A DNA stretch of 28,155 nucleotides from a virus (Duplodnaviria; Caudoviricetes): the IMG/VR virus record IMGVR_UViG_3300042923_001013, positions 1 through 28,155 of that record, one strand, 5' to 3'. This document shows positions 25,542 to 27,584 of this stretch, in pieces (position 1 is the first letter of the stretch; every line of letters starts with the position of its first letter). The notes beneath the pieces were generated by a model. It saw only the letters and a list, made by a program, of their open reading frames with translations. It did not search any database and was not told the DNA's origin. The translations under genes and the position numbers were made by a program.

Positions 25542-26132
25542 CTACGCGATCCGGTGGCGTCGGTTGGTCTCTGACAGGTCGTAGATGATCAGTCCTCCGT
25601 CGGTCCGCTCGACCCGCACCCCCTGTTGGTTGTGTTGTTGTTGCAGGTCAACACCGCCCACAGGGGGCGCAGCAGGGGGCCGGGGGAGGGGCGGTAGGTC
25701 GTCCTTGTGTACGCCTACGCCCGTGCGGGTGCCGCAGCGTACGGCGCGGCGTACGCGGATGCCGAGGGCCTCGAGGAGTGCGCGGGTGACGTCCATGGAC
25801 AGGCCGCGGGCGTCGGCGAGGTCGGCGAGGAAGACGTGCGGGTCGGCAAGCTGGTGCATCGTCTGGGCCAAGGGCTCGCGGTCGTCCTGGGCCTGGTCCT
25901 CGTCGGCGGGGCCGCCGCGGCGCCGGGTGATCCACCGGCGGGCCCGCTGCCATCCGTGTGTGCCGAGGACGCCGGTGATGACGTAGGCGGTCTCGGGCAG
26001 GACGGCGACGATCCCCCACATGGCGCCCAGCGCGACGGCGGCCAGGATGGCGCGGGCGGTGCGGTCGCTCATCCCGTCTCGCTCCCCCGGGCCGTCGGCG
26101 GCCGCGGGCTCGGTCTCCTGCGGCACGCTCAT
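25542..26132 (-). CDS. Membrane protein with soluble C-terminal domain (possible HTH)
   Basis: ATGA-coupled start; 1-2 TM helices; HVFLADLA...TRALLEALGI.VR..VR...GVGVH. Confidence 0.75.
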   Translation of the reverse strand: MSVPQETEPAAADGPGERDGMSDRTARAILAAVALGAMWGIVAVLPETAYVITGVLGTHGWQRARRWITRRRGGPADEDQAQDDREPLAQTMHQLADPHVFLADLADARGLSMDVTRALLEALGIRVRRAVRCGTRTGVGVHKDDLPPLPRPPAAPPVGGVDLQQQHNQQGVRVERTDGGLIIYDLSETNRRHRIA

Positions 26133-26635
26133 CCGAATGCCGCCGTGAACCAGGCGCCGAGCAGGTTGACCGAGGAGCCGAGGGGGACGGCGGCGATGCC
26201 GGCCACGGTGCCGGACAGGGCCACGGAGACGCCCGAGAACGCGCCGGCCGCCAGCTTGCCGTTGGACACCTTCGGAGCCCACTTCCACAGGGCGATCAGC
26301 ACCATGGTCAGCAGGAACACGATGACGTAGCCGCCGGGTGTGAGGGCGAGCTGCTGGGCGCGGGTGACGTCGGGGGCGGTGCCGCCGACGCCCCAGACGA
26401 GGCCGATGTAGCCGGCCACGTTCGCGGCCCACACGGTGGCCCAGGTGGCCATGCCGAGGGCGGAGATCGAGCCGAGGGCGGCCAGGGCGGCGAGCATGCC
26501 GTACAGGTGGGCCAGGACGAAGGGGACGAGGGCGGCGGGCTGGCGCTTCTCCTTGAGGCACCAGCGCAGGACGAAGGTGAGGACGACGCCGACGCCGAGG
26601 GCGACTCCTCCGAGGTTGATGGCCATGTAGGGCAT
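26129..26635 (-). CDS. Multi-pass membrane protein
   Basis: MPYMAINLGG...; at least 4 hydrophobic segments; SD GGAG. Confidence 0.8.
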   Translation of the reverse strand: MPYMAINLGGVALGVGVVLTFVLRWCLKEKRQPAALVPFVLAHLYGMLAALAALGSISALGMATWATVWAANVAGYIGLVWGVGGTAPDVTRAQQLALTPGGYVIVFLLTMVLIALWKWAPKVSNGKLAAGAFSGVSVALSGTVAGIAAVPLGSSVNLLGAWFTAAFG

Positions 26636-26637
26636 GG

Positions 26638-26802
26638 TCAGTGGCTCCAGACGGTGGCGACGTAGGCCGCGGCGAGGGTGAGTACGGCGACGGTGCAGAT
26701 GGCGGGTGCGAGGTAGAGGCCGGGTGCGCGTCGGGGTGCGAGTGCGCGCAGCCCGAGTGCGGCGACGAGTGCGACGGTGGGCCAGACGAGTGCGGTGCCC
26801 AT
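26638..26802 (-). CDS. Small two-TM membrane protein
   Basis: TGATG-coupled to the upstream gene; 54 aa, hydrophobic. Confidence 0.7.
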   Translation of the reverse strand: MGTALVWPTVALVAALGLRALAPRRAPGLYLAPAICTVAVLTLAAAYVATVWSH

Positions 26803-27390
26803 CAGGCGGTCTCGGGCAGGAGCGGCTGGATGCGCTGCGCGCGCTTCTGGCCGATGCGCAGCTCGGTCTGCAGGCGGCGCAGGGATGCGCGCTGGCCGGT
26901 CTCGGCGAGTGCGCGGCGGTTGACCTGGAGTGCGGATGCGAGGAGTGCTGCATCCGCATCCGGGCCGGGCAGTTCGCGTACGACGGATGCGGGTGTGCGG
27001 GGCTCGGGTTGCGGTTGCGGTGCGGGTGCATCCGGGGCCTGAGCTGCGGCGGATGCGGTTGCGCTCTCCTGCGGGTGCGGGTGCGGCGCTGCATCCGCCG
27101 TGGTGGGCTCGGCGACCTCTACGGCCTGTTCGGCTGCGTGCTCGAAGTCGTCGGCGGGGCGCGGGGGTGTGAGGGCGGCTGCGGTCTGGATGCGGTGCAG
27201 CGTGTCGTGCACCTGGCGCATGAGTGCGCCGAATGCGATGAGTGCGGCGGACGGGGGCACGGCTGCGACGACGTACTCCATCGGTTGCGCCCCGTTGCCG
27301 ACGCCGAACACGTTGAGTGCGATGGAGCCGAGGGAGCCGACTGCGGCGAGGGCGTAGGCCCACTTGTCGATTGCGCCTCGCAGGGATGCG
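26704..27390 (+). repeat. Polar array of short (GNN)TGCG repeats embedded in coding sequence
   Basis: About 37 TGCG on the + strand by manual count, mostly GAGTGCG, GGATGCG, GGGTGCG, GGTTGCG, GGCTGCG. Confidence 0.8.
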
Positions 27391-27584
27391 CGCAGCACGA
27401 GCAGCTCGCCCGCGACGATGAACAGGTCGACGGTGGCGGGCCAGGCCCAGGCGCGGGCGCCGGTGAGGCCGTTGCTGCTGGCGATGTCGTGCAGGTGTTC
27501 GTAGGACAGCCAGAAGGCGGCGGCGGTGAGTGCGATGGTGACGGCCGCGGCGCCGGCGGCGAGGCCTGCGGTCGGGTTCTTCAC
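26802..27584 (-). CDS. DUF2637-like membrane protein (plasmid spread-protein-like) with FtsK-gamma-like C-terminal HTH
   Basis: AFWLSYEHL.D.A...G...AWAWPATVD, S.ALNV, AAVPP motifs; Pro/Ala linker; ASLRRLQTELRIGQKRAQRI. Confidence 0.8.
   Translation of the reverse strand: MKNPTAGLAAGAAAVTIALTAAAFWLSYEHLHDIASSNGLTGARAWAWPATVDLFIVAGELLVLRASLRGAIDKWAYALAAVGSLGSIALNVFGVGNGAQPMEYVVAAVPPSAALIAFGALMRQVHDTLHRIQTAAALTPPRPADDFEHAAEQAVEVAEPTTADAAPHPHPQESATASAAAQAPDAPAPQPQPEPRTPASVVRELPGPDADAALLASALQVNRRALAETGQRASLRRLQTELRIGQKRAQRIQPLLPETA

What the first reader, a model, noticed from the sequence alone, without database searches (positions are those of the whole stretch)
26704..27534. Hidden strand-polar (GNN)TGCG repeat array written into a membrane/DNA-binding gene: candidate cis-acting binding locus
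Seen: about 37 TGCG tetramers on the + strand in 26704-27390 (manual count; roughly 4-5 expected at ~72% GC, and only about 7 on the other strand). Most are heptamers: GAGTGCG (26740, 26755, 26767, 26788, 26907, 26928, 27222, 27240, 27315, also 27528), GGATGCG (26828, 26883, 26934, 26985, 27051, 27188, 27384) and GGGTGCG (26704, 26722, 26734, 27073, 27079). On the coding strand the motif falls in all three frames (Ala GCA, Arg-Ile CGC ATC, Pro-His/Gln CCG CAN) and crosses a gene boundary. It favours GCA codons, whereas the equally Ala-rich neighbour 26129-26635 uses mostly GCC/GCG. Established: FtsK gamma reads polar 8-mers (KOPS), and Streptomyces TraB reads 8-bp direct repeats in clt. Inference: selection acts at the DNA level, and this is a clt/centromere-like array overlapping the gene of its probable binder.
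Basis: partly seen in the sequence, partly recalled or inferred. Interest (0 to 1): 0.9.

Follow-up and report, generated by a model that had tools for sequence, protein, structure and literature searches.

The report
Phage membrane gene holding own docking sites
A temperate Streptomyces-type phage has about 38 copies of one seven-letter DNA word written through the gene for a membrane protein with a predicted DNA-binding tail; across relatives the word changes whenever the tail changes, so the copies are most likely that protein's own docking sites and would tie the phage DNA to the cell membrane.

Summary
The array is real: 37 TGCG against 6 on the other strand, and all 22 listed heptamers are correct. 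It survives synonymous-codon nulls. The word is YGCANYC on the coding strand: 33 sense plus 5 reverse copies. It lies in a DUF2637 (SpdB2-like) four-helix membrane gene with a C-terminal helix-turn-helix weakly like FtsK gamma, in a 38-kb temperate phage with no FtsK/TraB.

The word follows the tail. All 19 DUF2637 genes with this tail hold 20-37 copies; 70 with other tails hold 0-9 and often other words. The same tail on three other membrane domains brings the same word. Tail residues track single bases (GCA/GTA/GTG), with exceptions. Plasmid pJV1 and cultured phage VWB have such arrays; pJV1's differs from its clt.

So it is not a clt, and polarity is clade-specific. The best reading is a self-addressed DNA-to-membrane tether. 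Binding and function are untested. This scan noted the same design before on other DNA; I found it in no paper searched.

The parts
26704..27534 (.). Array of 38 YGCANYC words (33 reading on the - coding strand, 5 on +), densest in 26704-27390
   Evidence: site list; nulls; single such cluster in the window and in three whole phage records
26802..27584 (-). DUF2637 (SpdB2-like) gene, 260 aa: membrane part, Pro/Ala linker, C-terminal helix-turn-helix
   Evidence: Pfam PF10935 E 1.8e-15, aa 13-137; AlphaFold model
27174..27578 (-). Four predicted membrane helices (aa 3-137); 10 of 24 synonymous openings for the word are used, 0 of 18 reverse openings
   Evidence: hydropathy
26967..27116 (-). Low-confidence linker (aa 157-206), dense in the word in all frames and both orientations
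   Evidence: pLDDT 45-60; sites and frames
26823..26966 (-). Three-helix helix-turn-helix tail (aa 207-254), weakly like FtsK gamma, no wing in the model; predicted reader of the array
   Evidence: covariation
26638..26802 (-). Small hydrophobic gene (54 aa), start overlapping the upstream stop; carries 7 sense copies of the word
   Evidence: 7 vs 0.1 and 2.6 expected; no Pfam or PHROG family
26129..26635 (-). 168-aa membrane protein of the same module, free of the word (1 of 24 openings used)
   Evidence: phrog_16379, unknown function; homologue follows the DUF2637 gene in phage VWB, E 2e-7
25542..26132 (-). 196-aa membrane-anchored protein closing the module; no array
   Evidence: weak PHROG hits of unknown function

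Best explanation
The repeats are most likely docking sites for the predicted helix-turn-helix tail of the membrane protein encoded by the same DNA, and binding would tether this one spot of the phage genome to the cell membrane. Shown: the array, its DNA-level origin, the protein's domain layout, the lack of a phage TraB, and that word and tail change together across four kinds of membrane domain. Inferred: many tails, from a membrane oligomer as reported for SpdB2, each grip a short low-specificity word through a flexible linker, so specificity comes from about 38 sites in 0.8 kb. Because site and reader share one gene, each swapped tail brings its own address and related elements do not cross-react. 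Further inferred: the tether helps the free phage circle be kept, positioned or passed between hyphal compartments, the role known for Spd proteins of Streptomyces plasmids.
For: (1) Codon nulls and context-dependent GCA use. (2) Same membrane domain, other tail: 19 of 19 genes with this tail hold 20-37 words, 70 with other tails 0-9, median 2. In the shared N-terminal part CGCA is 9.4 vs 1.4 expected only in this clade. (3) Same tail, other membrane domain: all 15 such loci looked at carry the word (16-47 copies). Members of those families with other tails lack it and in 6 cases carry the word predicted from the DUF2637 set (CGGAAC in L162, L177, L178; GGTCAC/GTGACC in L164, L168, L170). (4) Residue-base tracking among 82 related tails: L30/Q34/Q41 GCA word in 50 of 51; V/I/F/Y30 with K/R34 and Q41 GTA word in 18 of 19; K34/T41 GTG word in 7 of 7. 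The prediction noted held for 13 of 14 new Q34 loci and 7 of 9 new K34 loci. (5) Several other tail classes have 10.5-11 bp phasing in the disordered linker, also in off-frame pairs. (6) Precedent: SpdA2 binds sites in its own gene and stabilises pIJ101 (PMC4170104, passages); SpdB2 is an oligomeric four-helix membrane protein that binds DNA and has homologues in phages (PMC4447253, passages).
Against: No binding was measured, and pSVH1 SpdB2 was reported to bind dsDNA non-specifically (as cited in PMC4447253). Linker and tail travel together, so part of the covariation is shared descent; in family C the N-terminal 200 codons are not enriched (0-4 vs about 1). Loci within a clade are related, so counts are not independent. 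The position-34 rule fails in L220 and phage VWB (K34 with the GCA word) and L221 shows no word; position 30 fits those two but was chosen afterwards and does not fit L169. Helical phasing is absent from this clade's linker (z 0.2) and weak in this gene (z 1.8). phiSASD1 gp15, Dubu gp38 and pIJ101 spdB show no clear array, nor do L036, L066 and L072. Nothing here tests the biological role of a tether.
Confidence: 0.6

Rival explanations
1. The tail reads the array, but the purpose is regulation: bound protein blocks transcription through its own gene and the downstream membrane genes, giving negative feedback on a potentially harmful membrane protein.
For: The sites lie inside the transcribed region and run into the next gene. 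Plasmid transfer genes are known kil functions under tight control (PMC4447253). All covariation evidence fits equally.
Against: The sites start about 200 bp inside the gene and are sparse at and upstream of its start; about 38 weak sites over 0.8 kb is unlike an operator; a membrane anchor is not needed for repression. The promoter scan found nothing but covers sigma-70 consensus only.
Confidence: 0.13
2. The array is a self mark: binding to its own gene keeps a pore-forming SpdB2-like protein quiet or local, or lets it trap incoming DNA of kin phages (exclusion), rather than helping the DNA spread.
For: pSVH1 SpdB2 forms pores and is needed for pock formation (PMC4447253). Private, fast-changing word-tail pairs (at least nine words) suggest self versus non-self discrimination.
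Against: No toxicity or exclusion data; no toxin or defence domain was found by Pfam or PHROG; array-less homologues exist in cultured phages.
Confidence: 0.14
3. The array is a clt- or KOPS-like polar loading site for a TraB or FtsK motor supplied by the host or another element.
For: Real polarity in this clade after allowing for coding: 183 of 441 sense vs 13 of 326 reverse openings used in the membrane part, 306 of 550 vs 88 of 344 in the rest. The word shares CGCAC with the pJV1 clt repeat CCGCACA[C/G][C/G] (PMC3583192). Other clades have TraB nearby.
Against: No FtsK in 7 of 7 records with this tail, with 3 of 3 TraB-bearing controls found. The word follows the tail, not TraB: L020 and L165 have TraBs 85% alike with similar C-termini but different words. 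pJV1 keeps clt and gene array apart with different words. Polarity is lost in other groups.
Confidence: 0.06
4. No function: the words come from codon bias, tandem duplication in a low-complexity linker or protein repeats, inherited with the tail.
For: Two thirds of copies are Ala codons; 6-bp spacing is the commonest in the pooled set; the linker is low-complexity; linker and tail are inherited together.
Against: GCA use depends on the next codon only in this clade; the word fills synonymous sites of conserved membrane helices and a separate small gene; it occurs in three frames and both orientations; single-base shifts track helix-turn-helix residues; ordinary genes reach log10 p of only -2 to -5 for their best 6-mer, one acidic repeat apart, against -10 to -14. 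RNA folding is unremarkable (z -1.3).
Confidence: 0.04

Closest known systems
SpdB2 spread protein of Streptomyces plasmid pSVH1 and its homologues in pJV1, phiC31 and VWB (PMC4447253, passages read; Tiffert 2007 only as cited there)
   Same: Four predicted membrane helices plus a DNA-binding C-terminus, in an operon with small membrane genes; homologues known in actinophages. Close relatives of the pJV1 371-aa protein are named DUF2637 or SpdB by NCBI; phiC31 gp25 matches it (34%, E 2e-24); VWB gp24 is DUF2637 with the same type of tail and the GCA word.
   Different: SpdB2 was described as a non-specific dsDNA binder working with TraB. Here there is no TraB, no N-terminal coiled coil, and the evidence points to a private word inside the gene. 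Direct similarity to the pJV1 protein was not detected; pSVH1 was not available.
SpdA2 / sps of pIJ101 (PMC4170104, passages read)
   Same: A DNA-binding protein of a Streptomyces mobile element whose sites lie within its own coding region; loss lowers segregational stability.
   Different: sps is a 12-bp palindrome in 1-3 copies, shared between plasmids, read by a protein of 117-163 aa with a putative N-terminal DNA-binding domain. Here there are about 38 degenerate 7-mers, a membrane-anchored reader, and the word differs between tail classes.
clt loci and TraB (pSVH1, pJV1, pWTY27; PMC4447253 and PMC3583192, passages read)
   Same: Short direct repeats, element-specific, read by a C-terminal helix-turn-helix domain of a membrane-anchored protein.
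   Different: clt is a compact, mostly non-coding locus for an ATP-driven pump. This array is spread through coding DNA, the phage has no pump, and the word does not follow TraB.
FtsK gamma domain and KOPS (PMC2680272, passages read)
   Same: The tail profile's four best PDB sequence hits are FtsK gamma entries (E 0.04-0.15); 40 of 74 homologues hit PF09397 at E up to 0.1, best 1e-5; membrane domain, linker, then DNA reader.
   Different: No alpha-beta motor; the model has no wing; fold matches are generic three-helix HTH (best Z 6.3, FtsK gamma Z 4.9-5.0); sites are clustered, not spread along replichores.

Membership tests
DUF2637 (PF10935) | Profile match above the curated cut-off | tested here: met
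   57.6 bits vs cut-off 22.8, E 1.8e-15
SpdB2 spread proteins | Four membrane helices | tested here: met
   Predicted only: helices 3-36, 43-67, 73-92, 100-137; four hydropathy peaks
SpdB2 spread proteins | Sequence homology to a characterised SpdB2 | tested here: inconclusive
   No direct hit to the pJV1 protein (hhalign 0.4%; no Pfam hit); its relatives are labelled DUF2637 and 3 of 120 listed carry PF10935; the spdB2 name for pJV1 666-1781 is recalled, not annotated; pSVH1 record not held
SpdB2 spread proteins | N-terminal coiled coil as in pSVH1 SpdB2 (aa 1-99) | tested here: not met
   The first membrane helix starts at residue 3; the pJV1 protein also starts with its membrane part
SpdB2 spread proteins | Acts with an element-encoded TraB | tested here: not met
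   No PF01580 in the 38,202-bp record that contains the whole window, nor in 6 other records
SpdB2 spread proteins | Oligomer, pore formation, DNA binding, needed for intramycelial spread | not testable with these tools
   Bench properties
clt (TraB loading site) | Clustered short direct repeats | tested here: met
   33 sense, 5 reverse copies
clt (TraB loading site) | Cognate TraB on the element, repeat matching that TraB | tested here: not met
FtsK gamma / KOPS | Gamma-domain sequence and winged-helix fold | tested here: inconclusive
   Weak but top-ranked sequence hits; model is three helices with no wing and ties with many HTH folds
FtsK gamma / KOPS | Attached ATPase motor | tested here: not met
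   260-aa protein with no ATPase domain
SpdA2 / sps | Sites inside the binder's own gene | tested here: inconclusive
   Location shown; the binder is inferred from covariation only
SpdA2 / sps | Conserved 12-bp palindrome shared between elements | tested here: not met
   Degenerate 7-mer, differing between tail classes
Plasmid centromere (par) systems | Partner NTPase and centromere-binding protein | not tested
   No dedicated search; Pfam on 30 window ORFs and PHROG on 23 ORFs named none, but not all ORFs were scanned

The most novel reading that the evidence does not exclude
A motor-less, self-addressed DNA passage system: an SpdB2-like membrane oligomer uses an FtsK-gamma-derived tail to grip a barcode written in its own gene and holds or hands the phage genome across hyphal cross-walls, letting temperate phages spread inside a mycelium without virions. 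The tails form a swappable family with a readable residue-to-base code, and the classic plasmid SpdB2 proteins are sequence-specific readers of overlooked arrays in their own genes.
Probability: 0.22. Interest if true: 0.9.

Novelty: new variant of a known kind. Interest (0 to 1): 0.7.

Why it matters
SpdB2 is the most conserved spread protein of Streptomyces plasmids, yet its DNA target is unknown and its presence in phages is unexplained (PMC4447253). The finding names a target, predicts it for laboratory elements (pJV1: GTGAGC; phage VWB: CGCACCC) and gives residue-level predictions, so the question can be tested with a band shift and a synonymous recoding. It also shows a gene doubling as its own cis element at dozens of synonymous sites, with reader and address swapped as one unit between phages and plasmids. 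PHROGs labels the family 'excisionase' on a match that covers the membrane part, which is probably misleading.

Tried and rejected
Foldseek on the whole model and on the tail: no match at E<=0.001. phmmer of the single tail against PDB: none. RNA structure as the reason: z -1.3. Promoter and terminator scan: nothing. Helical phasing in this clade: an apparent z 7-8 on whole genes vanished in the linker and stayed only in the membrane part, where alpha-helix periodicity and a few shared positions may explain it; rejected for this gene. Fixed dimer geometry: overlapping inverted pairs are common (71 and 35 at two offsets) but that geometry is impossible for the other words, so not adopted. N-terminal tree: quick tree only, 128 columns, 45 of 85 forks open; this tail class needs 2 changes and one origin is not excluded, so it gives little independent support. 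Tail searches in cultured phages with families B and C: no match. phiC31 gp25 CTGAGC 9+0 vs 1.3 is no stronger than the best ordinary genes: not counted. Expression: no RNA holder listed. Rows dropped: 4 of 123 genes (broken or other N-terminus) then 119 to 89 at 90% identity; 14 of 96 tail hits as weak, internal or unmapped, among them L218, L070 and VWB; L232. The 3-fold cut used backgrounds a little below the measured ones (4.5, 2.0, 6.5 vs 5.2, 2.3, 8.1 per kb); L213 would fall just under. No complex prediction was run. Literature searches with no description of such arrays.

Full report
Setting. The window is most of a temperate tailed phage: tyrosine integrase, repressor-like gene, tail, capsid, portal, terminase and HNH genes. 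It matches, at 99.98-100% over its whole length, a 38,202-bp record with direct terminal repeats (G122). Named relatives of the gene are from Streptomyces and close genera, so the host is inferred. The finding lies in a four-gene module on the minus strand: a 260-aa DUF2637 gene (26802-27584; E 1.8e-15), a 54-aa hydrophobic gene, a 168-aa membrane gene and a 196-aa membrane-anchored gene.

Observation. The counts hold: 37 TGCG against 6, and 22 of 22 coordinates exact. Pooling 589 CGCA sites from 19 related genes gives the consensus YGCANYC on the coding strand. The window has 33 sense and 5 reverse copies in 26704-27534, against 2.8 per kb elsewhere. It is the only such cluster in three whole phage records. 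Against 2000 recodings with phage codon usage CGCA is 32 vs 7.6; against shuffles of the gene's own codons 32 vs 22.9 (p 0.001); the longer word is 16 vs 2.6 and 7.6, never reached. None of 22 other ORFs had p under 0.05. The sharpest control is context: in this clade GCA encodes Ala in 378 of 597 cases when the next codon completes the word and in 68 of 577 otherwise (window gene 20 of 30 vs 5 of 29); in the other 70 genes it is 103 of 1152 and 211 of 2325. RNA folding is ordinary. The signal is in the DNA word, not in codon taste or protein repeats.

Protein. AlphaFold on a 74-sequence alignment gives four helices in aa 3-137, a low-confidence linker, and a confident three-helix unit at aa 207-254. 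That tail folds as a generic helix-turn-helix with no wing (best Z 6.3, no significant Foldseek match). Its profile ranks FtsK gamma entries first in the PDB, but weakly (E 0.04-0.15), and 40 of 74 homologues hit PF09397 at E up to 0.1. 'FtsK-gamma-like' is a lead, not membership.

Test one: same membrane domain, different tail. From 122 loci plus the window, 119 genes were intact and 89 remained at 90% identity, in 15 tail clusters. The 19 with this tail hold 20-37 words; the other 70 hold 0-9, although their N-terminal parts are up to 81% identical to the query. In that shared part CGCA is 9.4 vs 1.4 expected only in this cluster. Other clusters have their own words, such as GGTCAY, GGACGS, CGGAAC, CGTTGC, CTGGAG, CGCTAC and GCGCCCC, giving a diagonal table. 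Those words were picked from the same data, so that table alone is circular.

Test two: same tail, different membrane domain. A search with the tail alone returned genes with three other N-terminal families; all 15 examined carry YGCANYC, 16-47 copies. Fetching more members of two of those families gave the reverse control: members with other tails lack the word, and six carry the word already assigned to their tail class. In family B the word also fills the membrane-coding part (14, 7, 8 and 10 vs about 1); in family C it does not (0-4 vs about 1). So part of the pattern may be co-inheritance of linker and tail, but not all.

Test three: residues and bases. Among gamma-like tails three words differ by one base: GCANYC, GTANYC and GTGNYC. 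I noted a rule on positions 34 and 41 and fetched new loci. It held in 13 of 14 new Q34/Q41 loci (the miss is a truncated contig) and 7 of 9 new K34/Q41 loci; L220 has the GCA word, L221 none; no new K34/T41 locus turned up. Many new loci are close to training ones. Over all 82 kept rows (14 dropped): 50 of 51, 18 of 19 and 7 of 7. Phage VWB is a second K34 exception. Position 30 (L/A vs V/I/F/Y) sorts both exceptions but was chosen afterwards and misfits L169. Within the clade, tails with Arg at 42 have a higher GCAGCC share (0.30-0.45, 8 genes) than those with Lys (0.10-0.28, 8 genes; my ratios). These are correlations among relatives, not a proven code.

Not a clt. PF01580 found nothing in 7 of 7 records with this tail, and found TraB in 3 of 3 controls; tblastn with six TraB proteins hit none of 19 loci. 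L020 and L165 have TraBs 85% alike with similar C-termini but different words. In pJV1 the clt repeats CCGCACA sit at 11107-81, while the 371-aa gene after them has GTGAGC 10+6 times vs 1.1 expected. That gene is unnamed in the record; I recall it as spdB2. Its relatives are labelled DUF2637 or SpdB and it matches phiC31 gp25, but it did not match Pfam or my profile directly. Polarity is real in this clade after allowing for coding but not family-wide. Phasing at 10.5-11 bp is clear in linkers of three other classes and absent in this one.

Cultured examples and misses. VWB gp24 is DUF2637 with the same tail type and CGCACCC 14+0 vs 0.9, continuing downstream, followed by a homologue of the 168-aa gene. 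Plasmids p-XQ-29-C and pADI95-16d have their own words. phiSASD1 gp15, Dubu gp38 and pIJ101 spdB show none; phiC31 gp25 is marginal.

Mechanism. Most likely the tail binds the word, and a membrane oligomer grips many weak sites at once, fixing this locus to the membrane. Reader identity is inferred from covariation (about 0.85). The purpose, keeping or moving the phage DNA between hyphal compartments, rests on the known roles of SpdB2 and SpdA2 and is weaker (about 0.6 overall). Autoregulation and a self-mark or exclusion role remain open.

Literature and novelty. I read passages of PMC4447253, PMC3583192, PMC4170104, PMC9239103 and PMC2680272; no supplements. Tiffert 2007 and the phiC31 and VWB genome papers I know only as cited. 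Eight searches found no description of such arrays; the library lacks most subscription journals, where the Streptomyces plasmid work largely sits. This scan's notes hold the same design on other DNA: 2 notes and 18 matching, 8 shown; none matched this sequence. My reading was written before I saw them, and they are not counted as evidence. The parts have known kin, the self-addressed array appears undescribed in print: new variant of a known kind, interest 0.7.

Noticed in passing
L125:666-1781 (plasmid pJV1): The gene after clt carries its own GTGAGC/GCTCAC array (10+6 vs 1.1 expected), distinct from the clt repeat.
   Followed up: partly
L261:16326-18918 (phage VWB gp24-gp25): DUF2637 gene with the same tail type and a CGCACCC array that runs on for about 1 kb; the annotated gp25 looks like an over-long ORF whose last 170 codons are the real membrane gene.
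   Followed up: partly
window:23994-24025: The circular record G122 is opened here, at an inverted T/A run around a GC core just upstream of the terminase genes; a possible cos end, about 2.7 kb from the array. Not tested.
   Followed up: no
L222, L224, L226, L228, L234, L225, L230, L233: Streptomyces genome ORFs with more distant tails carry CCGACT or CCGATC words; a further branch of the same design.
   Followed up: no
CL0, CL3, CL4 linkers; L037: Strong 10.5-11 bp phasing of the words in these tail classes (L037 spaced 11-12 or 23 bp), absent in the gamma-like class.
   Followed up: partly
L020, L022, L037, L048, L165 and others: Several tailed-phage records carry a TraB/FtsK gene just downstream of the DUF2637-type gene.
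   Followed up: partly
window:26802-27584: PHROG 733 is labelled 'excisionase', but the match covers the membrane part and linker (aa 11-200); RefSeq copies that name to phiSASD1 gp15 and Dubu gp38.
   Followed up: no
L160, L097: Genes whose C-terminus looks frameshifted but which keep their array (CGGAAC 14+5 in L160).
   Followed up: no
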